DNA of 64,000 nt from Escherichia phage vB_EcoM_RZ. The DNA lies in the sequence record MW598459. One strand, given 5' to 3'. Shown piece by piece: positions 6,894 to 60,265 of this stretch. The position numbers and the translations under genes are program-made. Each line of letters opens with the position of its first letter. Positions within the stretch are counted from its first letter, which is position 1. The notes under the pieces are model-generated. The model worked only from the letters and a program-made list of their open reading frames with translations, did not search any database and was not told where the DNA came from.

Positions 6894-7116
6894 GTTTCCA
6901 TGATTGGTTAAAAATATCGCTCATTAAAAATTCAAGTCTATTTTCCAATGAAGGGCTTTCACTACTAGAAACTTGAACCATGTAGTCAGCAATAGGTCGG
7001 AACATATCCAAGTCAGTTTCTAAATCATCTTTGATTTTCTCTTCTGATGTACCTGTATCATAGGAATACAGATAAGAATCGCATGACTCAGATTTAATAT
7101 AAATTGCAATACTCAT
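6880..7116 (-). CDS. hypothetical acidic small protein
   Basis: 78-aa ORF; start ATG overlaps stop of upstream gene (TAAATGA). Confidence 0.4.
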   Translation of the reverse strand: MSIAIYIKSESCDSYLYSYDTGTSEEKIKDDLETDLDMFRPIADYMVQVSSSESPSLENRLEFLMSDIFNQSWKRDDE

Positions 7117-11446: not shown

Positions 11447-11992
11447 TTGAACCCCTTTAGCATATTCACGACATTCAGCAATAAAACGATTAAGCTTACG
11501 TTTCCGTTTACGACCCTCTAATGTATACTCAGCCGCCAAATCAAGAAGCTCATCTTTATCATAATTTTTAATATCAGTATAAGTTGGGCGGCGGTCAACC
11601 ATTCCAAAGTGGTCACCATTTTCCAACATCAAATAACACACCAAATGGTCATCATCGTCCGCATTAATAAGCTGCTTATAATCACTTGGTTCATTTAACG
11701 CATACACAGAATAACTCAGCCCAGCGAATTCCACTCGTTGAATACCCAGATTTACGTCAATAATTTCCAAGGCATCTGCAAAAGAAAGGTCTTCAGCTAA
11801 AGCAAAAATAAAAGGCAATTTGGTAGTATCGCCGCGACTTGTTGTTCTTCTTAAGAAATCATTGGAATAGCCCAAGTCGCGGCGGATTCTATAAAGAACT
11901 GTGTTAGTTTCAGTGGCAAGACCACTACCGCCAAACCATTCCACATTTGATAAAAGATTATCATATAAAGTCATAATTTTCTCCTCTCCCAA
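11420..11992 (-). CDS. hypothetical protein (C-terminal KRKRK..FIAECRE)
   Basis: 190-aa ORF, acidic core, basic tail. Confidence 0.5.
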   Translation of the reverse strand: MGEEKIMTLYDNLLSNVEWFGGSGLATETNTVLYRIRRDLGYSNDFLRRTTSRGDTTKLPFIFALAEDLSFADALEIIDVNLGIQRVEFAGLSYSVYALNEPSDYKQLINADDDDHLVCYLMLENGDHFGMVDRRPTYTDIKNYDKDELLDLAAEYTLEGRKRKRKLNRFIAECREYAKGVQNANVISAK

Positions 11993-19653: not shown

Positions 19654-19681
19654 TTTGCTTTAAAACAATCAGTGTTATAAT
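19654..19681 (+). promoter_or_regulatory. consensus T4 middle (MotA-dependent) promoter, antisense to gene 2
   Basis: Plus strand TTTGCTTTA (MotA box) - 13 bp - TATAAT - GGTTCTAGACC, in the gp3/gp2 intergenic gap and pointing into gene 2. Confidence 0.45.
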
Positions 19682-19727
19682 GGTTCTAGACCTTTTGTCC
19701 TTACCAATAACACTGACCGATAATAGA

Positions 19728-20561
19728 TTATGAATTTCTCCATACTTTCTGTGAAGAAAATCTTTTGCCTTTTGAAAAAAACTGCTGAAGGGGGAGTAAT
19801 ACCACATTTGCCCAGTCACTGGGCTTGATTTCAGTAATAGTACCTTTTATATTGCCAGGTATATATGCTTTAATCATCTGGTCAGCCCCTTTAAATCCCT
19901 TCACCTTTGACCAATCAATCTTCAGATGAGTCTTGTTCGTAATCGTAGGAGTATTAGCATATTGCTTAAGAAGTTCCTCAAGGAACTCTTGACGTGCCTT
20001 CGGTGGAATATAGTGCAAGTTCAAACCATACATCAAATTGTGCTTACCTAGCCCAAGATAAATGATTAACGGATATTTGTCCCAGTACGGAAGAGTATCC
20101 TTATGCTTTGCATCATAGATATAAGCATAAATCTTACCCGGTTGAGGTTTAGCCGTTACGTGGCCACGAACTGATTTCTTAATTGTCTCAGCGAACCATC
20201 TGGCAGATTTGGTGTTGCTTGCTGCGCCTTCGTTAGCAATCTTATCTCTTATGCTCTTTCTAAAGCTATTCACCATTATCAGCTGGCGTTCAGCCTTCGT
20301 AAGTTTACCGGCGGGTTTCTTTTTGAGCTTGGATACTTTATAAGCAGTCTGAATTCTCGAATGATATCTTGACATGCTTTTGGTAAAGGTCGAATAGTTG
20401 ATTCCTTTCTCTTCAGCAAACTTCTTCGAGGTCATTCCCTTTTCTTTTGCTGTATAAAATTCAACCCCTATTTCAACCCATTGTTGTTCGGATTTACTGG
20501 GTTTTGGACCTGGTTTATCTACAGATTCATTGATAAATGTAAAAATACTCATCCTTTCCAT
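19728..20561 (-). CDS. 2: DNA end protector protein gp2
   Basis: 277 aa (T4 gp2 274 aa), basic, between gene 3 and gene 4 region. Confidence 0.7.
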
Positions 20562-21277
20562 CCTTCTATAAAATTAATCAAATCATTTTTTAAATAGTAT
20601 GGTAAGGTTTCTGTATAGCCATCGACCATAATATCTTTATTCAAATAACCTCTGTCTTTTATATATAATACAGATATTGCGGATTCTAACATTTTGGCTT
20701 GTGCACCCAGTTCAAATTCTCGATAATATAATTTGGAACTAATGCATTTGGAAAAATGATTTTGCTGCCACAATCTAAAATCATGATTGGAAGTTATACC
20801 ATACTTTAAAGCAGTTCCGCCCGGATATTCTATTTTATTAACATAAACAATAGCAGGTTTCTTTGCGTTAAATCCTTTGTGACAACAGTTTGGACATCCT
20901 TTGTTTTTTGTTGTAAAGTTGTTTAGATTTGTAATCCAACTGGTTGAACATGTAGAACACTTTATATAGGCTTTTGATTTTGTAAAAGTTGAATATGTGG
21001 TATCCCATTTATCAAAACTATACAATGGATTCACGGAATTTATTCTTGTGATTGCATCTAATTCAGATATTAATTTGCTTTCACCATAAGAACGTTTTAA
21101 ATTACAATTAGAACACCAACTTTTTGTTTTTAACTTATGCTTTAAAACAGTTGCTTTGTATTTGCATGTTTCTTCACATATAAAGCACTTTACAAATATC
21201 AAAGTTTTTGATTTATTAAAATCGCCTTGTCCCACTATCTCGCCATTTGTGATGTTAAAATCTGAACAATCGTACAT
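20549..21277 (-). CDS. inserted Zn-ribbon protein with C-terminal GIY-YIG-like nuclease motifs
   Basis: 242 aa; CxxC pairs ([22 protein letters not shown]); then AIVYV-x11-KYGIT, downstream R and E; no gene at this position in T4. Confidence 0.5.
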
Positions 21278-45335: not shown

Positions 45336-45941
45336 GTGATTATTTCTAAATTTGTTGAAGTTAAAATACGAAATCATGCAAAATGGTGGAGTGAATACTT
45401 AGGTAAAACTCTAACATACCATGATGTAATTTCTGTTCCAGTTGAACAAATGCCAGATAATAGTAATAAAAAGATTGAGTGTTCCTGTGATGAATGTGGG
45501 GTACATTTTGAGCGCGGCATTCAGCTGCTTCGTCGTGTTGATAAACATTTATGTAAAGCATGTTCAAGAAAAGATATTGGACAAAAGAATGTTATTGCGC
45601 AAGGTGGTGTACCAAGACCATGGCAACGCGGTGAAAAACATCATAGCTGGAAGGGTAATAAGCGCGAATTCTATTTGTATGCTCAACGCGTTCATGCATT
45701 GACAAGAGCAAAACATCTAAAGAATATTTGGTCAACATGGGAAAATGCAGATAAGATAGGAAAATGTGGAGAAGATGGTGCATATCAACTTGACCACAAA
45801 GTTTCTATTGCATATGGATTTTATAATCACATACCAGAGACTGTTATCGCTTCGCTCAACAATTTAGAAATAGTCACTTGGGAATCTAATAGGTCCAAAG
45901 GAAAATCAAATAGTATTGACTTATGGGATATATTATCCTGA
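45336..45941 (+). CDS. HNH homing endonuclease inserted between genes 18 and 19 (GTG start inferred)
   Basis: HNH motif YQLDHKVSIAYGF..NLEIVTWESNRSKG plus Cys clusters CSCDECG..CKAC; SD AAGGA 7 nt before GTG. Confidence 0.7.
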   Translation: MIISKFVEVKIRNHAKWWSEYLGKTLTYHDVISVPVEQMPDNSNKKIECSCDECGVHFERGIQLLRRVDKHLCKACSRKDIGQKNVIAQGGVPRPWQRGEKHHSWKGNKREFYLYAQRVHALTRAKHLKNIWSTWENADKIGKCGEDGAYQLDHKVSIAYGFYNHIPETVIASLNNLEIVTWESNRSKGKSNSIDLWDILS

Positions 45942-45965: not shown

Positions 45966-46018
45966 CCGTAGAACCATTATACAATGCTATAAATAAAAGC
46001 ATATCATCGGTTCTACGG
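45966..46018 (+). promoter_or_regulatory. long hairpin enclosing a late promoter (TATAAATA at 45988-45995)
   Basis: Arms CCGTAGAACC / GGTTCTACGG (10 bp) around ATTATACAATGCTATAAATAAAAGCATATCAT. Confidence 0.5.
45977..46001 (-). promoter_or_regulatory. possible degenerate middle promoter on minus strand (antisense to HNH gene)
   Basis: Minus strand TGCTTTT(A)-12/13 bp-TATAAT-GGTTCTACGG; box differs from MotA consensus at one position. Confidence 0.25.
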
Positions 46019-53741: not shown

Positions 53742-53770
53742 AAAGGGACCTTCGGGTCCCTTTATTTTTA
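53741..53770. terminator. bidirectional rho-independent terminator between gene 24 and rnlB
   Basis: GGGACCTTCGGGTCCC hairpin flanked by A-run and T-run. Confidence 0.65.
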
Positions 53771-54775
53771 TTCACTAACTAATGCAATCCAAACATGTCT
53801 TAATGTTTCTCTTACATTTGCGATGAGTTGCTTTTTAACTTCAACAGGATTTTCCGTCAGGGACAATTCAAGACCTTCGCGCCCCGCTTCTTCCAGAATA
53901 TCTTGGACTGTTAACCCCATTACTTTTCCAAAATCCTTCGGTGTTACTTCCCCAATTTTACTGATAACATTGTTGATACGGTTAACAGTCACATAATCAG
54001 TGAAATTCCACAGTAAATCCATATCATTTTGGCTCAGAACCACTGCAGCCTTAATAGGCTTATCAGACTTTTTCTTTTCACTGAATTTAGAGTTCTTACA
54101 TTTAATCGCTACACGCTCGCCGTTAGGTAACCATGCAGGAACATCAGGTTTTAATACAAATCCTTCAGCAGTGAATACTTTACCTTCCACCTTTGCATCA
54201 AAATCAGTGGTATTTGCTGTAGTCAAACCTGCGTTATCCACTGTAAAATTGTAATCAGGGACAACAGAATCCAGGTCATTAGGGAGCTTAATTAATTCTT
54301 CAAAACTACCTGTAGCCAGGCGCGGCGCAACCTTAAACTTATGGATAATACAGAATGCTTCCATCAGGGTGTCAGTCAGGACGGATTCAAAACCATCTTC
54401 TTTAGTAACGCGGATATCAAATACATAAAAATCTTTATCACCGTAATCCACATTCTTCTGGATACCTGCCCCGGCAAACTCACCATAAATCTGGTATGCC
54501 TGGTAATTAATATCCTGCAAAAGTTTCTGCACAGATTTAATAGAATCTGCATAGTTCTTTAATACAATTTCATAACCATAGAAATCTTCTGCAGGCAGGA
54601 TAGGTCCAGTGCGTTTCGCACATGTTACATTGTCTTGTTCAATGATTAATGAAAAGTTGGTACCATGAATCTTCTCGCGAGCTACCCATTCACCGCTGGT
54701 GAAGCCTTGCAGGCGAATCTTTTCAATGAACTTGTTGTTATAGTGATTTTCAAGGCTGTTGTATTTCTTAAACAT
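53768..54775 (-). CDS. rnlB: RNA ligase 2
   Basis: 335 aa; nucleotidyltransferase motif I REKIHGTN; position after gene 24 as T4 rnlB (24.1). Confidence 0.85.
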
Positions 54776-54873
54776 AATCTCTCACTTTTGATGTTATAAA
54801 TATCATTATAAATTAGACCCACTATACTTTCTTTCTCTGAAAGGAATTAATAGTCGCAAAGGGGTCTAGAACC

Positions 54874-54901
54874 ATTATACCACAATTTTATTTGAAGCAA
54901 A
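54874..54901 (-). promoter_or_regulatory. T4 middle (MotA) promoter for rnlB
   Basis: Minus strand TTTGCTTCA - 13 bp - TATAAT - GGTTCTAGACCCC. Confidence 0.55.
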
Positions 54902-54905
54902 AAGG

Positions 54906-55169
54906 TCAGAATTTTACATACAGCATTGGCTTGGCTTCTTGCCAATCATAATTCCAGGTAAATGATGTAAATTTTTCTGCTCGCAGAAATTCAGATATCT
55001 TTGCGCGGTTTCCTTCTTCATACTCTTTTTCAGAAACTGCCATATTAACAGCATCTTTGCCATTTTCAGCGGCGGCAATAGCCACTTTGCGGAATATAGC
55101 AATAAAGTCATTTGCAACTTTATCTTGTGACTCTTTGGCCATTTGACGTAGTTCTTCTGCGAATGTCAT
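54906..55169 (-). CDS. hypothetical protein (24.2/24.3 position)
   Basis: 87-aa ORF between hoc-like gene and rnlB. Confidence 0.45.
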   Translation of the reverse strand: MTFAEELRQMAKESQDKVANDFIAIFRKVAIAAAENGKDAVNMAVSEKEYEEGNRAKISEFLRAEKFTSFTWNYDWQEAKPMLYVKF

Positions 55170-55369
55170 TTCTTCACCTTTTTGTTATTCAAACGTTTAC
55201 GATAAACAATCTTTTCTTTCGCTTTAAATTTAGCTTTAGCTTGTTCTACATCAACCCAGGCCTTTGCCATCTCTTTAGCAGTCCCGCCTAATACCTTGGC
55301 AATTTCAATAAATGTCATACCAGATTCATGCAGAAAATGTACTTTAACCTTATCCATAATGATTCTCAT
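55166..55369 (-). CDS. small basic protein with helix-turn-helix-like segment
   Basis: 67 aa; MTFIEIAKVLGGTAKEMAKAW resembles an HTH; lysine-rich C-terminus. Confidence 0.4.
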   Translation of the reverse strand: MRIIMDKVKVHFLHESGMTFIEIAKVLGGTAKEMAKAWVDVEQAKAKFKAKEKIVYRKRLNNKKVKK

Positions 55370-55454
55370 GTTGAGTTAGTGAAGCTATCTTAACATGGAA
55401 TTTTTAACTTGTAAACAGGGTTTTTATGCCAGGCAACGTTTGTACAGTACCATA

Positions 55455-55483
55455 AAAACAAAGGGACCCGAAGGTCCCTTTTT
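55455..55483. terminator. bidirectional rho-independent terminator
   Basis: GGGACCCGAAGGTCCC hairpin flanked by A-rich and T-rich runs. Confidence 0.6.
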
Positions 55484-55485
55484 AA

Positions 55486-56334
55486 TTAATAAACGTAATC
55501 GTATATAATACCAGCTTCTAAAGCGGTGCGATGAATAATTCGACCATTACGAGATTCTTGTACATCAACCTCTGGATAGTCGGTAATCATTTTTTGAAGG
55601 GTATATCGGTGCAAATAATACGGGCTATCTGGAGCATCAGTTTTCCAGTCTTGCCCAGCAAGAGTCATTTTCTGAATTTCGTCCATAACCCACCAACCAC
55701 ACCAGATATAAGCTGAATTACGAACTGGCAGCGGATGAACGTAAGGTAGTTCGCCCTCTGGTTCAGGAGCTACTTTAGCCGTGACTGTTACATTACCAGT
55801 TTTTGTAACGGTTACAGGGTTATAATCAGTAGCAGATACAACAACAGAAACTTCAATTACCTGGGAACCTTCGGTGCTTGTATCGATTGCTAGAGTATCC
55901 GTGGTGTCAACTACAGGAGAACCGTCTTTCTTCCATGAATAGGCAAAAGTAGCACCAGCAGGCGCGCCAACTACATCTGCTTTAAATGAAGCTAGGGTGT
56001 CTTCCGGAACATTAATCGAAGCTGGAGTTAATGTCACAGAAACACCAGACATTGTTTTATTCTGGATAGTTAAAGTTGTTTCGGCTTCAGCTGTTTCTGG
56101 TTCGCCGTCCGCTGGTGTAGTTGTTGCAACAACTTTAATAGTCTTACTGTCTGCTGGACCAACAGCAACATAATCCATTGCAGCAGTCACAGAAGATTGA
56201 GGAACGCCATCAACGGTCCAGACAAATGATTCGGTACCTTCAGCTGCAGCACCGGAACCGGTCGCAGTGAAATTGGTTGTTGCTCCAATAACGGCCGTAG
56301 CCGTCAAAGGAGCAATAGTTACGGTATAAGCCAT
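55486..56334 (-). CDS. hoc: Hoc-like head outer capsid protein (Ig-like domains)
   Basis: 282 aa; T/V/A-rich beta-strand repeats typical of Ig-like domains and a Trp-rich C-terminal domain; position as T4 hoc. Confidence 0.55.
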   Translation of the reverse strand: MAYTVTIAPLTATAVIGATTNFTATGSGAAAEGTESFVWTVDGVPQSSVTAAMDYVAVGPADSKTIKVVATTTPADGEPETAEAETTLTIQNKTMSGVSVTLTPASINVPEDTLASFKADVVGAPAGATFAYSWKKDGSPVVDTTDTLAIDTSTEGSQVIEVSVVVSATDYNPVTVTKTGNVTVTAKVAPEPEGELPYVHPLPVRNSAYIWCGWWVMDEIQKMTLAGQDWKTDAPDSPYYLHRYTLQKMITDYPEVDVQESRNGRIIHRTALEAGIIYDYVY

Positions 56335-56343
56335 AATAAACCC

Positions 56344-57009
56344 TTATTTTAAAGTGACAAAAGATGAGTTACGAGTTTCTCGTACTAGAACAGACCCATT
56401 ACGATTGATGTAATAAATCAAACTGAATAGAGTTTGGTGTGCGGTGGGATGTGGGAAAGCAGTTGGACGTTCTTTCCAATCTGGAGTCTCGGCAATCCAC
56501 TGATAAATCCACCATGGAACAGTGCAGAATCCAGGGTTCTTACCAATAAGCATTAAATTCGGGCTAAAGTTTTTTGGCAGAGCAAATACGGGTTTTTCAG
56601 ATTCGATAACCTTAGCAACAGCAGCTTCGAACCTTTCTTCGACAAAAGGAATATCTTCTTCAACCACAACAACTGGTTCTTCGATTTCAACAACTTCAAC
56701 CTTTGCTTCGGTTGGAGCATCAAATAAGAGTTTAGCTTCTTCTTTAGCTGACTCATCGCCATCAAATTTAGCACCTGACAATTCATCATCGGCATCGATA
56801 AGGTCAGTGATGCTCAGGCCTTCATTATCATCAGGCATAGGCATGTCAGCAAATGCTTTAAGTCCTGCTTCCAGGTCAGCCAACATATTATCAAAGGTTT
56901 TTGTTTTCTTAACATCAACACCAAGTGATGCTGCATATTCGGCTAATTTTTCTTTGGCTTCTTTTTTCTCGAGGACACGAATTTCCTCAATGTAGTTCTT
57001 GTCAATCAT
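56344..57009 (-). CDS. inh: Inh-like protein (prohead protease inhibitor position)
   Basis: 221 aa acidic protein (T4 Inh 226 aa) located between hoc and uvsW as in T4; by position and size only. Confidence 0.45.
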   Translation of the reverse strand: MIDKNYIEEIRVLEKKEAKEKLAEYAASLGVDVKKTKTFDNMLADLEAGLKAFADMPMPDDNEGLSITDLIDADDELSGAKFDGDESAKEEAKLLFDAPTEAKVEVVEIEEPVVVVEEDIPFVEERFEAAVAKVIESEKPVFALPKNFSPNLMLIGKNPGFCTVPWWIYQWIAETPDWKERPTAFPHPTAHQTLFSLIYYINRNGSVLVRETRNSSFVTLK

Positions 57010-57027
57010 GATGAACCTCGGTTAGTG

Positions 57028-57035
57028 TATAAATA
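57028..57035 (+). promoter_or_regulatory. late promoter TATAAATA for uvsW
   Basis: Exact TATAAATA about 28 nt upstream of uvsW ATG. Confidence 0.55.
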
Positions 57036-57063
57036 TAGATATATTTATTACCTTGGAATCATC

Positions 57064-58563
57064 ATGGATATTAAAATCAACTTTCTAAATTTTAGTCACG
57101 TGCATGTTGAATGTGAAGATGGAATCTTCTACGAACTCCGTGATTACTTCAGCTTCGAAGCTGAAAACTATCGCTTCAATCCAAAGTTCAAGCAGGGAGT
57201 TTGGGACGGACGAATCCGCCTCCTGGATTACAACCGTAAATTACCATACGGTTTGGTTAATCAAATTAAAAAGTTCGCTGACCAGTTTGGCTATTCATTC
57301 TGGATTGACCCACAAATCACCGAGAAAGAAGAAATCTCTCGCGAAGAATTCAACAAATGGGTCGAGTCAAAAGAAATCTATTCAGGCAATACCAAGATAA
57401 CGCCCCATTGGTATCAATCTGACGCCGTATATGATGGTCTGGTCAACAGAAGAAAGATTCTGAACTTACCTACGTCTGCAGGTAAAAGCCTCATCCAGGC
57501 GCTTCTGGCGCGATATTATCTCGAGAACTATGAAGGCAAGGTGCTTATCCTTGTTCCTACAACTGCGCTTGTTGACCAGATGATTAATGACTTTGTTGAT
57601 TATCGGCTTTTCCCTCGTGCAGCTTGTCTGGGTATTCGTTCTGGGACTAAACGCGATTCTGATGCGATGATTTATGTATCGACTTATCAGACGGCTGTAA
57701 AACAACCTAAAGAATGGTTTGAACAGTTTGGCCAGTTTATGAATGACGAATGCCACATGGCTACAGGTAAATCGATTTCGACGGTTATCGAAGGCCTTAC
57801 GAATTGCATGTTTAAATTTGGTCTGTCAGGTTCACTCCGTGATGGCAAAGCCAACCTTATGCAATATATGGGTCTGTTTGGTGATATCTTTAAACCAGTA
57901 TCAACATCTAAATTAATGGAAGATGGCCAGGTTACTGACCTTAAAATAAATAGTATTTTCCTTCGTTACCCTGATGAATTCACCGTTAAAATGAAAGGTA
58001 AAACTTATCAGGATGAAATCAAGGTAATTACAAAAGCTACACGCAGAAATAAATGGGTAACAAACCTTGCCCTCAAGCTTTCTAAAAAAGATGAAAACGT
58101 CTTTTTGATGTTTAAGAATATCGAGCACGGTAAATCGATGTTTGAAATGATTAAGGAAGCTGGTCATGAAAAAGTGTATTATGTTTCTGGGGAAGTCGAT
58201 ACCGAAACTCGTAATGCTCTGAAGGTCATGGCAGAGAATGGAAAGGGAATTATTGTTGTAGCTTCATATGGTGTATTCTCGACGGGGATTTCCGTTAAAA
58301 ACCTCCATCATATTATTTTCGCTCACCCAGTCAAGTCAAAGGTAATTGTACTCCAGACAATTGGTCGTGTGCTTCGAAAACATGAATCCAAATCGACCGC
58401 AAACGTGTGGGACATTGTGGATGATATGGGGGTCAAACCCAAATCAGCAAACGCTAAAAAGAAATATGTTCATATTAACTTTGCGCTTAAACATGCACTA
58501 GAACGTATTCAGCGGTATGCAGACGAAAAATTCAATTATGTAATTAAACAGGTGGAAATATAA
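57064..58563 (+). CDS. uvsW: UvsW RNA-DNA/DNA-DNA helicase
   Basis: Start at MDIKINF as in T4 UvsW; helicase motifs LPTSAGKS and DECH (MNDECHMATG). Confidence 0.9.
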   Translation: MDIKINFLNFSHVHVECEDGIFYELRDYFSFEAENYRFNPKFKQGVWDGRIRLLDYNRKLPYGLVNQIKKFADQFGYSFWIDPQITEKEEISREEFNKWVESKEIYSGNTKITPHWYQSDAVYDGLVNRRKILNLPTSAGKSLIQALLARYYLENYEGKVLILVPTTALVDQMINDFVDYRLFPRAACLGIRSGTKRDSDAMIYVSTYQTAVKQPKEWFEQFGQFMNDECHMATGKSISTVIEGLTNCMFKFGLSGSLRDGKANLMQYMGLFGDIFKPVSTSKLMEDGQVTDLKINSIFLRYPDEFTVKMKGKTYQDEIKVITKATRRNKWVTNLALKLSKKDENVFLMFKNIEHGKSMFEMIKEAGHEKVYYVSGEVDTETRNALKVMAENGKGIIVVASYGVFSTGISVKNLHHIIFAHPVKSKVIVLQTIGRVLRKHESKSTANVWDIVDDMGVKPKSANAKKKYVHINFALKHALERIQRYADEKFNYVIKQVEI

Positions 58564-58790
58564 TGAAATCCTTCGAAGAAATTATGTACGAAGCATCAAT
58601 TGAAGGCTTTATGGCTAAGATTGGTTCCTGTCAGACCATGGACGGTCTGAAGGAGTTGGAAGGCTATTATAAGAAACGCAGCAAAGAAGCTGAACTGAAA
58701 GATTCCGATGATATCAGTGTTCGCGATGCTCTTGCCGGTAAACGCGCCGAGCTTGAGGATATGGACGACGAAGAAGACGAAGATTTCTAA
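58563..58790 (+). CDS. uvsW.1: UvsW.1 small acidic protein
   Basis: 75 aa (T4 UvsW.1 76 aa), overlapping uvsW stop. Confidence 0.6.
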   Translation: MKSFEEIMYEASIEGFMAKIGSCQTMDGLKELEGYYKKRSKEAELKDSDDISVRDALAGKRAELEDMDDEEDEDF

Positions 58791-58791
58791 A

Positions 58792-58820
58792 TAAAAAGGC
58801 CCCAACCAAAAGGAAGGGGC
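58792..58820 (-). terminator. rho-independent terminator for leftward uvsY operon
   Basis: GCCCC-loop-GGGGC hairpin followed on the minus strand by TTTTTT. Confidence 0.55.
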
Positions 58821-58839
58821 AAAACCAAAAATGGTTAAC

Positions 58840-59015
58840 AACACTAGCTAAATTAAAAGTTGGGTCTCGTTCAGTTGCTCTTCTGTATTTTCCGTAACTG
58901 GCAAACTCTGAACATAATTATAACAGGCGCCCGGATGCACCGGACCTTGGTCTGTATCCACAACCAATGCAGAATCGATTGGAGTTTTACAGACAACACA
59001 AATCTTATCTGACAT
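58840..59015 (-). CDS. small Cys-containing ORF (uvsY.-2 position)
   Basis: 58-aa ORF (below track cutoff) read manually: MSDKICVVCKTPIDS..; between uvsY.-1 and terminator. Confidence 0.35.
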
Positions 59016-59154
59016 GATTGTCTCCTCAGTTAAACTTACATATCTATTTAGTGCTCTTCATAATAGCAGCACGAGCTTTCATCTCATTAACAATTTCGGT
59101 TATTCGGTTTGCAGAGATAACCATCTCGTCGAGAATCTTACTAATATTTTTCAT

Positions 59155-59388
59155 TTAATTTTCCTTAAAGTATCTCATACCGGTATCTATTCCCATATTG
59201 TGAGAATAGAACGCATCATCGATGTATCCTGCAAATTTACCTTTAACATAGATAACATCTTCACCACAAGGGTGGTCAGCGCAGATACGAATATCTGCAC
59301 GATTCAATTTCCATTCCTTCATCATATACTTAATTTCTTCTTCGAACTCTTCGTCTTGGTTAAACGCATCGTCGATAGAATATCGCAT
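59155..59388 (-). CDS. uvsY.-1: UvsY.-1-like protein
   Basis: 77 aa (T4 UvsY.-1 76 aa), immediately downstream of uvsY. Confidence 0.55.
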   Translation of the reverse strand: MRYSIDDAFNQDEEFEEEIKYMMKEWKLNRADIRICADHPCGEDVIYVKGKFAGYIDDAFYSHNMGIDTGMRYFKEN

Positions 59389-59822
59389 TACTTGCCCGCC
59401 TCAAATTGTCTTATTTCTAACATATGTTTAAGTGCGAAACTTCGTGACTTAACACCATCTAATGCAGCGCTACAGAAGTCCTGGAGCAGTGTCCAATACT
59501 GAATTGACGTATCAATCTTCAGTACGCTTGAATCTGCGGCCATGACTGTTTTCAATTCTGACTTCTCGTACACATCCATGCATACTTCTTCCCCTGGGTC
59601 ACCCCTTCCTGTATAATGGTCTAGTCGTTTTTTCAGTGCAGTTTTCTTCTGAATCTCAAGACGCATTATTTCTTTCTTGCAGTTGGTATACAATCTCAAC
59701 CATTTGCTATGCAACAAAACGTTGTTTTGTGTTTCATATTGAAGTTGTGTACCATCAATTTTTAAATCTGCATCTAACTCATCCTGAAAGACTTCTAACT
59801 TATATTCAATCTCTGTTTTCAT
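59388..59822 (-). CDS. uvsY: UvsY recombination mediator
   Basis: Start at MKTEIEYKLE; LQYETQNNVLLHSKWL, LDHYTGRGD, LKIDTSIQYW, KHMLEIRQFEAGK match T4 UvsY. Confidence 0.9.
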   Translation of the reverse strand: MKTEIEYKLEVFQDELDADLKIDGTQLQYETQNNVLLHSKWLRLYTNCKKEIMRLEIQKKTALKKRLDHYTGRGDPGEEVCMDVYEKSELKTVMAADSSVLKIDTSIQYWTLLQDFCSAALDGVKSRSFALKHMLEIRQFEAGK

Positions 59823-59850
59823 AATGTATCCAATGTAAGGGTCTAGAACC

Positions 59851-59877
59851 ATTATACAGCCATAAAATTAAAGCATT
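59851..59877 (-). promoter_or_regulatory. T4 middle (MotA) promoter for uvsY
   Basis: Minus strand AATGCTTTA - 12 bp - TATAAT - GGTTCTAGACCC; box overlaps gp25 stop. Confidence 0.6.
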
Positions 59878-60265
59878 AACCGTTTTGACTTAGCTGAATC
59901 CTGATTTGTTCGAGGGTATCAGGGTCATCAACAATGCTGAACTGAACTGTTACGATAATGGAGTTATCATCATACATAGGGACAACTGCCACCTGTAGAT
60001 TGCTTATCCTTGGTTCGAAGTTCCGCACCGCGGAGACGATGTTGCGTTTAATGGTATCTGTGATTAATGGAGTGATATTCTCGAAAAGCTGATTACTTAT
60101 ATCACATCCAAATTCAGGCATAAAAGGCCTTGACCCTTTTCTTGTGGTGATTATTCCCAAAAGACTGTTCTTAACAGACCTTGCACCAGTTACTTTAGCA
60201 ACGTCTTTATCCCAACTTGTAGATAAGTCGGGAGACACATCGCTATACATTTTGTTTATATTCAT
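59876..60265 (-). CDS. 25: baseplate wedge protein gp25
   Basis: 129 aa (T4 gp25 132 aa); position uvsY-25-26. Confidence 0.8.
   Translation of the reverse strand: MNINKMYSDVSPDLSTSWDKDVAKVTGARSVKNSLLGIITTRKGSRPFMPEFGCDISNQLFENITPLITDTIKRNIVSAVRNFEPRISNLQVAVVPMYDDNSIIVTVQFSIVDDPDTLEQIRIQLSQNG

What the first reader, a model, noticed from the sequence alone, without database searches (positions are those of the whole stretch)
54861..59877. Shared start-site core TATAATGGTTCTAGACC across middle promoters
The rnlB promoter (54874-54901) and the uvsY promoter (59851-59877) have MotA-box-like sequences (TTTGCTTCA, AATGCTTTA) 12-13 bp upstream of TATAAT, followed by the same GGTTCTAGACC start-site sequence. 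The same 17-nt core recurs in the antisense promoter at 19654-19692 and, with ..CTACGG, in the hairpin at 45966-46018. A conserved start region (containing the TCTAGA palindrome) beyond what the promoter consensus requires suggests duplicated promoter cassettes or an additional recognition site.
Basis: seen in the sequence. Interest (0 to 1): 0.4.

Follow-up and report, generated by a model that had tools for sequence, protein, structure and literature searches.

The report
Shared start-site core of T4-type middle promoters
Three promoters in this T4-like phage carry an identical 17-base stretch around the point where transcription starts; it is the local version of an extended promoter core that a small, old family of phage "middle" promoters shares and that seems to be kept uniform within each phage genome.

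Summary
TATAATGGTTCTAGACC occurs exactly three times (19676-19692 +, 54863-54879 -, 59840-59856 -), against 0.12 expected even with 3 mismatches allowed. A fourth copy, TATAATGGTTCTAcgg, lies at 45969-45981 (-). All four follow a MotA box at 12-13 bp.

The window is an SP18/JS98-type T4 relative, and SP18 encodes MotA and AsiA. By homology with T4 PuvsY, PnrdC.7 and P34i, whose starts are mapped, transcription should start at the A of TCTAGA.

These are not recent duplicated cassettes. Each site is syntenic in T4, RB69 and JS98-type phages (the 18/19 copy only in SP18), and the spacers are unrelated. The core belongs to a subfamily of MotA-box promoters conserved from about -14 to +6. The subfamily includes the oriF promoter and orphan antisense promoters that are absent from the published T4 list.

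Each lineage has its own version: T4 TCTAAGTCC, RB69 TTTAGGTC, here TCTAGACC. Copies within a genome are more alike than orthologues between genomes, which indicates concerted evolution.

The most likely function is at the RNA polymerase level: a GG discriminator, an A start, +2G and the first transcribed bases, close to lambda PR. A separate binding factor or a role in replication origins is not excluded.

The parts
19654..19662 (+). Site A: MotA box TTTGCTTTA. It lies in the gene 3 / gene 2 intergenic region and points against gene 2.
   Evidence: The orthologous box is conserved in 12 distinct sequences.
19676..19692 (+). Site A: -10 TATAAT (19676-19681) plus core GGTTCT-A-GACC. The predicted start is A at 19688. 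This is an orphan antisense promoter with no ORF of 40 aa or more downstream on the + strand before 19926.
   Evidence: Orthologues: T4 75988 (+), RB69, JS98-type phages and others.
45995..46003 (-). Site D: MotA-like box TATGCTTTT, with one mismatch to the consensus.
   Evidence: The same arrangement is present in SP18.
45966..45981 (-). Site D: -10 TATAAT (45976-45981) plus the core variant GGTTCT-A-CGG (45966-45975). The predicted start is 45969, antisense to the 201-aa ORF and gene 18. The same bases form the left arm of the hairpin.
46009..46018 (.). Right arm (GGTTCTACGG) of the 10-bp inverted repeat that encloses site D.
   Evidence: Folding the + strand gives -20.2 kcal/mol, z = -4.5.
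45988..45995 (+). Late-promoter motif TATAAATA in the hairpin loop, back to back with site D and pointing toward gene 19.
   Evidence: Read directly from the sequence. The T4 late-promoter consensus is taken from PMC1524935.
54893..54901 (-). Site B: MotA box TTTGCTTCA upstream of rnlB.
54863..54879 (-). Site B: -10 TATAAT (54874-54879) plus core GGTTCT-A-GACC. The predicted start is 54867. It drives rnlB (53768-54775).
   Evidence: Orthologues are present in JS98-type phages, RB69 and others.
54814..54826 (-). Degenerate second copy TATAGTGGGTCTA inside the rnlB leader. It can pair with the 5' AGACCC of the predicted RNA.
   Evidence: The fold is not significant (z = -0.53).
59869..59877 (-). 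Site C: MotA box AATGCTTTA. It directly follows the end of the gene 25 ORF (59876-60265, -) and overlaps its stop codon.
59840..59856 (-). Site C: -10 TATAAT (59851-59856) plus core GGTTCT-A-GACC. The predicted start is 59844. This is the uvsY promoter and the positional orthologue of T4 PuvsY, the promoter of replication origin oriF. The likely uvsY start codon is at 59822.

Best explanation
The shared 17-mer is the -10 hexamer plus the discriminator, start site and first transcribed bases of four MotA/AsiA-dependent (sigma-appropriation) middle promoters. These promoters belong to a small, old subfamily found in T4-like phages.

The subfamily's conserved block runs from about -14 to +6, roughly (T/G)G-TATAAT-G-(G/A)-N-T-C-T-A-R-G-Y-C-C. 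Transcription starts at the A that lies 7 nt after TATAAT, here the A of TCTAGA.

The block lies in the part of a promoter that E. coli RNA polymerase holds as the open bubble and downstream fork. The most likely job is therefore at the polymerase level. G at -6/-5 contacts sigma region 1.2. A pyrimidine at -1 and A at +1 fix the start. G at +2 fits the core recognition element. The first 5-6 transcribed bases tune promoter escape. Together these would give a stable, precisely starting promoter when the -35 contact has been replaced by MotA.

The exact identity of three copies in this genome is not inherited from a duplication. It results from concerted evolution: family members are homogenised within a genome, most simply by short-tract copying (gene conversion) between the roughly 20-bp homologous blocks, possibly reinforced by selection.

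What is shown:
- the promoter anatomy;
- orthology and conservation;
- the edges of the conserved block;
- covariation within genomes;
- mapped start sites in T4 homologues.

What is inferred:
- MotA dependence in this particular phage;
- the polymerase-level role of the core;
- gene conversion as the homogenising mechanism.
For: Anatomy:
- Each site has a MotA box, a 12-13 bp spacer and TATAAT.
- motA and asiA are annotated in the relative SP18, which is 96% identical over the region.

Start site:
- The published T4 starts (PMC2988021, Table 1) fall on the A 7 nt after TATAAT in PuvsY (TATAATGAATCT[A]AGTCC), PnrdC.7 (TATAATGGTTCT[A]AGCCC) and P34i (TATAATGGTCCC[A]G).

A subfamily rather than a general feature:
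- Among 58 mapped T4 middle promoters, most have A or T after the -10 hexamer.
- In SP18, ordinary early-region middle promoters read TATAAT + ACCTCC, TAACAT, AGAGGC and so on. Six sites all read TATAATGGTTCT: srd/modA antisense, the nrdC.7-type site, gene 3/2 antisense, 18/19, rnlB and uvsY.

Conservation:
- The same sites exist in T4, RB69 and JS98-type phages, plus more distant IMG/VR genomes.
- Information content is high only from -14 to +6.
- Divergence is 4.4 of 12 positions in -6..+6 against about 7.4 of 12 in the spacer, even between orthologues.

Concerted evolution:
- T4 sites S and C share GGTATAATGAATCTAAGTCC.
- RB69 sites A and C share TATAATGGTTTTAGGTC.
- Here sites A, B and C share TATAATGGTTCTAGACC.
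- The true within-genome A-C pairing gives the smallest distance of all 24 permutations (7, next best 11). The global permutation fraction is 0.0035.
- Under a position matrix built from the other lineages, the chance of 3 or more identical copies in SP18 is 0.0013. The chance of the T4 pair is 0.019 and of the RB69 pair 0.018.
- The local AGACC looks like the family's AGGTCC with GT changed to A. This is clearest at B, where close relatives read AGACCTTCCGATAC against the family's AGGTCCTTCCGATAC. The same AGACC at three unlinked sites favours copying over independent mutation.

Polymerase-level role:
- The roles of -6G/-5G, the core recognition element's +2G and the initial transcribed sequence are reviewed in PMC10911233.
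- Lambda PR reads GATAATGGTTGCA, matching 11 of 13 positions.
- SP18 early promoters also have a conserved G-W-W-C-C-Y-A start region.
Against: - No transcription data exist for this phage. MotA dependence and the start site are by homology only.
- T4 versions have GA, not GG, at -6/-5 and A, not G, at +2. The two best-understood polymerase contacts are therefore not invariant.
- All these phages infect enterobacteria, so the polymerase is essentially the same. A polymerase optimum alone does not explain lineage-specific versions.
- Conservation from +3 to +6, and to about +14 among T4's S, A and C sites, goes beyond the known sequence-specific polymerase contacts.
- Gene conversion across only about 17-20 bp of homology with unrelated flanks is mechanistically demanding, and no conversion tract extending into the flanks was seen.
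- The covariation statistics rest on four lineages and on a family that I defined myself, anchored on TATAATG.
Confidence: 0.55

Rival explanations
1. The core is an operator-like site, or a 5'-RNA tag, for a separate phage-encoded factor that controls this set of promoters as a regulon. The cis sequence and the factor co-evolve, which would give each lineage its own version at several unlinked sites.
For: - Coordinated lineage-specific versions occur at unlinked sites.
- Conservation extends past the polymerase contact positions, to +6 generally and to about +14 in T4 S/A/C.
- The host polymerase is the same in all lineages, so it does not explain the lineage-specific differences.
Against: - No candidate factor is known.
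- The block has no conserved symmetry, and the TCTAGA palindrome is lineage-specific.
- Family-wide information content falls to background beyond +6.
- Not all members within a genome share the +2..+6 part. In SP18, S reads AAGGTC and D reads ACGG, against AGACC at A, B and C.
- No complementary target sequence exists elsewhere in T4 or SP18.
Confidence: 0.15
2. The core marks origin-type middle promoters whose transcripts form persistent R-loops and prime DNA replication, as at T4 oriF (uvsY) and oriG (gene 34). On this reading the orphan antisense sites (gene 3/2, 18/19, srd/modA) would be additional or back-up origins.
For: - Site C is the orthologue of the oriF promoter.
- The oriG promoter P34i reads TATAATGGTCCCAG.
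- Three family members (gene 3/2, 18/19, srd/modA) are antisense and have no evident gene to express.
- How other T4 origins fire is an open question in the field (PMC3016281).
Against: - The family also contains ordinary sense promoters: PnrdC.7 and the rnlB promoter.
- The oriA-associated promoter P56 lacks the core.
- The TATAATGGTCCC of P34i lies on a conserved peptide stretch of gp34, ETGTLWDH. Reading the reverse strand as W-D-H-Y codons (my own reading), it could be held by coding constraint.
- Downstream A+T content does not stand out, and it is unremarkable even for the known origins.
- The review states that R-loop formation at oriF does not depend on specific sequence and that the origins share no motif.
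- The early transcribed RNA is pyrimidine-rich, which by general knowledge gives weak RNA:DNA hybrids.
Confidence: 0.1
3. The identity has no function of its own. It is a neutral by-product of recombination between short dispersed promoter repeats, in the style of PeSL/PmSL cassettes, in a phage with very active recombination.
For: - Promoter-centred repeats that recombine are documented in T4-type phages, including Mot-box versions called PmSLs (PMC4122927).
- The same AGACC, apparently derived from AGGTCC by one complex change, is found at three sites.
- Site D sits next to a 201-aa ORF that SP18 lacks.
Against: - The block is conserved across four genera and in non-orthologous comparisons, while the neighbouring spacers have randomised. 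Purifying selection therefore acts on it.
- Sites A, B and C have no adjacent stem-loop and sit at fixed core-genome positions, not at indel boundaries.
- At site B the sequence is invariant to +5 and highly variable from +6 among close relatives.
Confidence: 0.15
4. The conserved element acts as RNA: a common 5' leader such as AGACC/AAGUCC(U)UCC that affects stability, processing, capping or translation.
For: - All members start with A-R-G/A-Y-C-C followed by a pyrimidine-rich run.
- T4 RNAs that start with A can be NAD-capped, and promoter context matters for this (bioRxiv 10.1101/2024.04.04.588121).
Against: - There is no common secondary structure. The 5' folds of A, B, C and D here and of T4 S and C are not better than shuffles. 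Only site A of T4 and RB69 has a hairpin.
- The strongest conservation lies upstream of +1, which is not transcribed.
- Half of the members are non-coding antisense RNAs, so a translational role cannot be general.
Confidence: 0.05

Closest known systems
T4 MotA/AsiA-dependent middle promoters (sigma appropriation), specifically PuvsY (the oriF promoter) and PnrdC.7
   Same: - MotA box centred near -30.
- Spacer of 12-13 bp.
- Perfect -10 hexamer, often preceded by TG/GG.
- Start at an A 7 nt after the -10 hexamer.
- Site C is the syntenic orthologue of PuvsY.
- PnrdC.7 reads TATAATGGTTCTA, identical to the local core up to +1.
   Different: - The published consensus stops at the -10 hexamer. 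Here a further block from -6 to +6 is conserved in only a subset of promoters.
- Two conserved members, srd/modA antisense and gene 3/2 antisense, are not in the published list of about 58 T4 middle promoters.
Lambda PR and the sigma-70 discriminator / core recognition element
   Same: - Lambda PR reads GATAAT-GGTTGC-A, against TATAAT-GGTTCT-A here.
- Both have G at -6/-5 and a 6-nt discriminator with an A start. The local core also has G at +2, which lambda PR (T at +2) lacks.
   Different: - Lambda PR uses a -35 element and unmodified polymerase.
- The T4 lineage versions lack -5G and +2G.
- Conservation here continues to +6.
PeSL / PmSL promoter-stem-loop cassettes of T4-type phages (Arbiol 2010; Comeau 2014, PMC4122927)
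   Same: - Dispersed, near-identical promoter-centred repeats within one T4-type genome.
- They are proposed substrates for recombination.
- A Mot-box version (PmSL) has been described in a vibriophage.
   Different: - PeSLs combine a terminator stem-loop with the promoter, cluster in hyperplastic regions and flank variable ORFs.
- Sites A, B and C have no stem-loop and sit at fixed syntenic positions in conserved regions.
- Only site D, a promoter enclosed by a 10-bp inverted repeat next to an inserted ORF, looks cassette-like.
T4 R-loop replication origins oriF and oriG
   Same: - Both are built on a MotA-dependent promoter.
- Site C is the oriF orthologue.
- Both P34i and the local core begin TATAATGGT.
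   Different: - Origins are defined by a downstream unwinding element and by replication assays, neither of which could be shown here.
- The family includes ordinary gene promoters.

Membership tests
MotA/AsiA-dependent middle promoter | MotA box (a/t)(a/t)(a/t)TGCTT(t/c)A centred near -30 | tested here: met
   TTTGCTTTA, TTTGCTTCA and AATGCTTTA match exactly. Site D reads TATGCTTTT, with one mismatch. The consensus is taken from PMC1524935 and PMC2988021.
MotA/AsiA-dependent middle promoter | Sigma-70 type -10 (TAnnnT) 11-13 bp downstream of the box, with no -35 element | tested here: met
   TATAAT follows at 12 or 13 bp in all four sites. The sigma-70 scan reports no -35/-10 pair at sites A or D.
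MotA/AsiA-dependent middle promoter | The phage encodes MotA and AsiA | tested here: met
   The genes are not in the window. motA and asiA are annotated in SP18, which is 96% identical over the region.
MotA/AsiA-dependent middle promoter | MotA-dependent transcript starting about 7 nt after the -10 hexamer | not testable with these tools
   Homology only. The T4 PuvsY, PnrdC.7 and P34i starts are mapped at the equivalent A.
T4 R-loop origin (oriF/oriG type) | Middle promoter followed by an A+T-rich DNA unwinding element | tested here: inconclusive
   The promoter is present. A+T content over +1..+80 is 0.62-0.74 against a genome mean of 0.60 in SP18. The known origins are equally unremarkable.
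T4 R-loop origin (oriF/oriG type) | Persistent R-loop and autonomous replication of the fragment during infection | not testable with these tools
   This needs plasmid replication assays or 2-D gels (PMC3016281).
PeSL/PmSL mobile regulatory cassette | Terminator-like stem-loop joined to the promoter | tested here: not met
   There is no stem-loop next to A, B or C. Site D has an inverted repeat that encloses the promoter rather than preceding it.
PeSL/PmSL mobile regulatory cassette | Located in hyperplastic regions at boundaries of variable ORFs | tested here: not met
   A, B and C are at syntenic positions across genera. Only D adjoins an ORF (45336-45941) that SP18 lacks.
Consensus sigma-70 discriminator + core recognition element | G at -6/-5 on the non-template strand and G at +2 | tested here: met
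   TATAAT-GG-TTCT-A-G is present at A, B and C. This is not met by T4 PuvsY, which reads GAATCT-A-A. The roles of these positions are taken from PMC10911233.

The most novel reading that the evidence does not exclude
The start-site core defines a hidden regulon of T4-type phages. It would consist of MotA-box promoters, among them the oriF promoter and conserved orphan antisense promoters (srd/modA, gene 3/2 and 18/19). Their -6..+6 (to +14) sequence would be read by an unknown phage-encoded factor, or would specify R-loop or primer formation, and would co-evolve with that function in each lineage. In that case the orphan sites could be the missing determinants of poorly understood T4 origins, or a programmed antisense shut-off system.
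Probability: 0.15. Interest if true: 0.7.

Novelty: new variant of a known kind. Interest (0 to 1): 0.4.

Why it matters
T4 middle promoters are the model for sigma appropriation, and their accepted definition ends at the -10 hexamer.

Three consequences would follow from a conserved subfamily with an extended -14..+6 core whose versions co-vary within genomes:
- It gives a concrete, testable handle on how discriminator and start-site sequences work when MotA has replaced the -35 contact.
- It flags conserved antisense MotA-type promoters in T4 itself, with predicted starts at 11897 (+) and 76000 (+). These are absent from the compiled list of mapped middle promoters.
- It offers a clean natural example of concerted evolution of 20-bp regulatory elements in a highly recombinogenic virus.

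The finding also bears on an open question in the field: what, beyond a promoter, makes oriF an origin.

If the core turns out to be nothing more than a strong discriminator, the finding is a modest refinement of the promoter consensus.

Tried and rejected
- **Chance.** Rejected by shuffles and by the genome-wide restriction of the core to promoters.
- **Recent duplication of whole cassettes.** Rejected because the spacers and flanks are unrelated and each site is syntenic in other genera.
- **A common 5' RNA structure.** The folds of the predicted leaders are no better than shuffles. Only site A of T4 and RB69 has a hairpin, and only the DNA/RNA hairpin around site D is significant here.
- **A known RNA family at the sites.** Rfam finds only two tRNAs in the window.
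- **A complementary target for the 5' sequence elsewhere in the genome.** None was found at the 9-mer level in T4 or SP18.
- **A discrete antisense RNA ending at a terminator.** One weak terminator-like hairpin lies 122 nt downstream of site A, but this is within the chance expectation.
- **Downstream A+T richness as an origin signature.** It does not discriminate.
- **Literature.** No paper in the library contains these sequence strings. A T4 dRNA-seq study reports 150 start sites, 22 of them antisense, but its table is not held. The Miller et al. 2003 T4 genome review could not be read.
- **Pfam on neighbouring ORFs.** This added little.

Full report
**Observation.** The 17-mer TATAATGGTTCTAGACC is present exactly three times in the window: 19676-19692 on the + strand, and 54863-54879 and 59840-59856 on the - strand. 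Even with three mismatches allowed, shuffles give 0.12 matches, and none of 100 shuffles reached three. The 11-mer after TATAAT occurs exactly only at these three places, and its near-matches are at chance level. A fourth copy, TATAATGGTTCTA followed by CGG, lies at 45969-45981 (-) within a 10-bp inverted repeat, 45966-45975 / 46009-46018. Each copy is preceded at 12-13 bp by a MotA-box 9-mer: TTTGCTTTA, TTTGCTTCA, AATGCTTTA, and TATGCTTTT for the fourth. These four are the only MotA-box + TATAAT combinations in the 64 kb.

**What the window is, and where the sites lie.** The region is 96-99% identical to SP18/DK-13-type T4 relatives of the genus Gaprivervirus. SP18 encodes MotA and AsiA, so the sigma-appropriation system is available to this clade.
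- Site C lies directly after the gene 25 ORF and about 22 nt before the likely uvsY start codon at 59822.
- Site B lies in the intergenic region upstream of rnlB.
- Site A lies in the 85-nt gap between gene 3 and gene 2 and points against gene 2.
- Site D lies between a 201-aa ORF and gene 19 and points against that ORF and gene 18.

A and D therefore have no evident gene to express.

**Start site.** Start positions published for T4 middle promoters (PMC2988021, Table 1) were placed on the T4 sequence. They fall on an A seven nucleotides after TATAAT in three promoters:
- PuvsY: TATAATGAATCT[A]AGTCC
- PnrdC.7: TATAATGGTTCT[A]AGCCC
- P34i: TATAATGGTCCC[A]GAG

By homology the local promoters should start at the A of TCTAGA: 19688 (+), 54867 (-) and 59844 (-), and at 45969 (-) for site D. 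This is inference, because no transcript data exist for this phage.

**A subfamily, not a general property.** In the complete SP18 genome, ordinary early-region MotA-box promoters have A or T after the -10 hexamer (ACCTCC, TAACAT, AGAGGC and so on). Six sites read TATAATGGTTCT:
- the four seen in the window;
- a + strand promoter between srd and modA, antisense to modA;
- the orthologue of T4 PnrdC.7.

Among the 58 mapped T4 promoters only a handful resemble this. T4 itself has the two orphan antisense members:
- GGTATAATGAATCTAAGTCCTTCC between srd and modA, with a predicted start at 11897 (+);
- GGTATAATGGGTCTAAGTCCCTTCC between genes 3 and 2, with a predicted start at 76000 (+).

Neither is in the compiled list of T4 middle promoters. 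The antisense gene 3/2 promoter is conserved in 12 distinct sequences, down to 54% gp3 identity. The srd/modA promoter is conserved in T4, RB69, JS98-type and SP18-type phages.

**Extent of the conserved block.** All distinct family sequences were aligned on the -10 hexamer. Information content is high from -14 to +6: (T/G)G before the -10 hexamer, G at -5, T-C-T at -3..-1, A at +1, G at +3 and pyrimidines at +5/+6. G at -6 cannot be assessed, because the set was anchored on TATAATG. Information content is at background elsewhere, including the MotA-to-TATAAT spacer. Between lineages, -6..+6 differs at 4.4 of 12 positions, whether the sites compared are orthologous or not. The spacer differs at about 7.4 of 12 even between orthologues. 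Among five closely related SP18-type genomes, the block from -12 to +5 is invariant at all 15 copies, while at site B the sequence changes abruptly from +6 onward. The core is thus under purifying selection and is defined at the level of the family rather than the site.

**Concerted evolution.** Each lineage has its own version.

| Lineage | Identical or near-identical copies |
|---|---|
| T4 | S = C: GGTATAATGAATCTAAGTCC; A differs at two positions |
| RB69 | A = C: TATAATGGTTTTAGGTC |
| SP18-type (this window) | A = B = C: TATAATGGTTCTAGACC |
| JS98-type | A and B share AGGTC |

- The true within-genome A-C pairing gives a summed distance of 7, the lowest of all 24 permutations (the next lowest is 11).
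- A global permutation over four sites gives a fraction of 0.0035.
- A position matrix was built from the other lineages to allow for the family consensus. Under it, the chance of three or more identical copies among SP18's six members is 0.0013. The T4 pair has a chance of 0.019 and the RB69 pair 0.018.
- The local AGACC appears derived from the family's AGGTCC by a GT-to-A change. Close relatives have AGACCTTCCGATAC at site B, against AGGTCCTTCCGATAC in RB69 site C and AGGTCCTTCCGTTA in JS98-type site B.

The same AGACC at three unlinked sites points to copying between sites rather than independent mutation. The promoters are therefore old and fixed in place, but their cores are being homogenised.

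**Likely mechanism of the core.** The conserved block lies in the part of a promoter that RNA polymerase holds as the open bubble and fork. According to the review PMC10911233:
- G at -6 and -5 on the non-template strand contacts sigma region 1.2 and can lengthen open-complex life 10- to 50-fold.
- G at +2 fits a pocket of the beta subunit, the core recognition element.
- The initial transcribed sequence affects promoter escape.

The local core TATAAT-GG-TTCT-A-G has all of these. It matches lambda PR (GATAAT-GGTTGC-A) at 11 of 13 positions. SP18 early promoters also carry a conserved G-W-W-C-C-Y-A start region. My best explanation is therefore a polymerase-level extended core for promoters that have lost the -35 contact to MotA.

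There are three weaknesses:
- The T4 versions have GA at -6/-5 and A at +2.
- The host polymerase is the same across lineages, so it cannot explain lineage-specific versions.
- Conservation reaches +6, and about +14 among T4's S, A and C sites.

**Rival explanations.**
- *A separate phage factor reading the core.* This would explain the co-variation. Against it, there is no conserved symmetry, information falls off after +6, not all members of a genome share +2..+6, and no complementary target exists.
- *An origin or R-loop role.* This is suggested by site C being the oriF promoter and by P34i (oriG) reading TATAATGGTCCC. Against it, the family includes ordinary gene promoters and the oriA-associated P56 lacks the core. 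The P34i sequence lies on a conserved peptide stretch of gp34, ETGTLWDH. Read on the reverse strand it could be W-D-H-Y codons held by coding constraint (my own reading). Downstream A+T content is uninformative. The field's own review states that the origins share no motif.
- *A purely neutral recombination by-product.* This conflicts with the conservation of the block next to randomised spacers.
- *An RNA-level element.* This is unlikely because there is no common fold and the best-conserved positions are not transcribed.

**Site D.** The inverted repeat encloses, on the - strand, the MotA-type promoter and, on the + strand, a late-promoter motif TATAAATA (45988-45995). The + strand RNA hairpin is significant (-20.2 kcal/mol, z = -4.5). 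The same structure exists in SP18, which lacks the neighbouring 201-aa ORF, and it is absent from T4. It is the only member that looks like a promoter-stem-loop cassette of the PeSL/PmSL kind (PMC4122927).

**Novelty and limits.** MotA-dependent promoters, PuvsY/oriF and the discriminator/core-recognition-element contacts are all known. I could not find the following described anywhere in the library:
- the extended -14..+6 family;
- its lineage-specific, intragenomically homogenised versions;
- the conserved orphan antisense members in T4.

No paper in the library contains the sequence strings. Key older papers (Miller 2003; Truncaite 2003; Stoskiene 2007) could not be read, so prior description cannot be excluded. 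All functional statements are inferences from sequence. The co-variation statistics rest on four lineages and on a family that I delimited myself.

Noticed in passing
window 59850-59852 (-); SP18 uvsY CDS 113707-114171 (L017): The longest uvsY ORF, and the uvsY CDS annotated in SP18, start at the ATG inside TATA-ATG-G of the promoter. That ATG lies upstream of the predicted transcription start (59844), so the middle-mode mRNA cannot contain it. The real start is probably the ATG at 59822 (MKTEIEYK...). RB69's annotated uvsY start also lies upstream of its promoter.
   Followed up: partly
window 45336-45941 (+): A 201-aa ORF lies between gene 18 and the site D hairpin. It is absent from SP18, whose 18/19 intergenic region otherwise has the same hairpin. 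It matches PHROG 5104 (unknown function) and has no Pfam hit. By eye it has an HNH-like D-H...N...N motif, which suggests a free-standing homing endonuclease insertion.
   Followed up: partly
window 20549-21277 (-): A 242-aa ORF lies just upstream of gene 2, where SP18 has gene 4 directly abutting gene 2; it is not in the SP18 annotation. It matches PHROG 681 'endonuclease' (2.5e-29) and has a weak treble-clef zinc-finger hit. It is probably another mobile endonuclease insertion.
   Followed up: partly
window 45988-45995 (+): The late-promoter motif TATAAATA sits in the loop of the site D hairpin, overlapping the MotA-like box of the opposite-strand promoter by one base. This places a middle and a late promoter back to back inside one inverted repeat.
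   Followed up: partly
window 54814-54826 (-): A degenerate second copy of the core, TATAGTGGGTCTA, lies 40 nt into the predicted rnlB leader. GGGUCU can pair with the 5' AGACCC, but the fold is not better than shuffles.
   Followed up: yes
SP18 genome (L015-L018), e.g. 6934, 166775, 137336, 59199, 48090 (-): The early promoters of this clade read GTGTACA-N16/17-TATAAT-G-W-W-C-C-Y-A. Many have an inverted repeat that brackets the -10 hexamer, for example GGGGTCagagTATAATGACCCC. Near-identical copies occur at 6934 and 166775. They resemble PeSL-type recombination motifs.
   Followed up: no
T4 L194 4007-4052 (+), RB69 L244 2800-2847 (+): Just downstream of the gene 3/2 antisense promoter, T4 and RB69 have a significant hairpin (z about -3). 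Its stem sequences differ between the two phages: CTTCCATTC/GAATGGAAG in T4 and TCTCTTCC/GGAAGAGA in RB69. It lies just after the end of gene 2 on the sense strand. It is not evident in this window.
   Followed up: partly
SP18 152169 (-) (L018): A second TATAATGG site lies inside gene 34, antisense, with an extended -10 and a degenerate MotA-like box (aaACGTTTCA). It is 1.5 kb from the oriG-type promoter.
   Followed up: no
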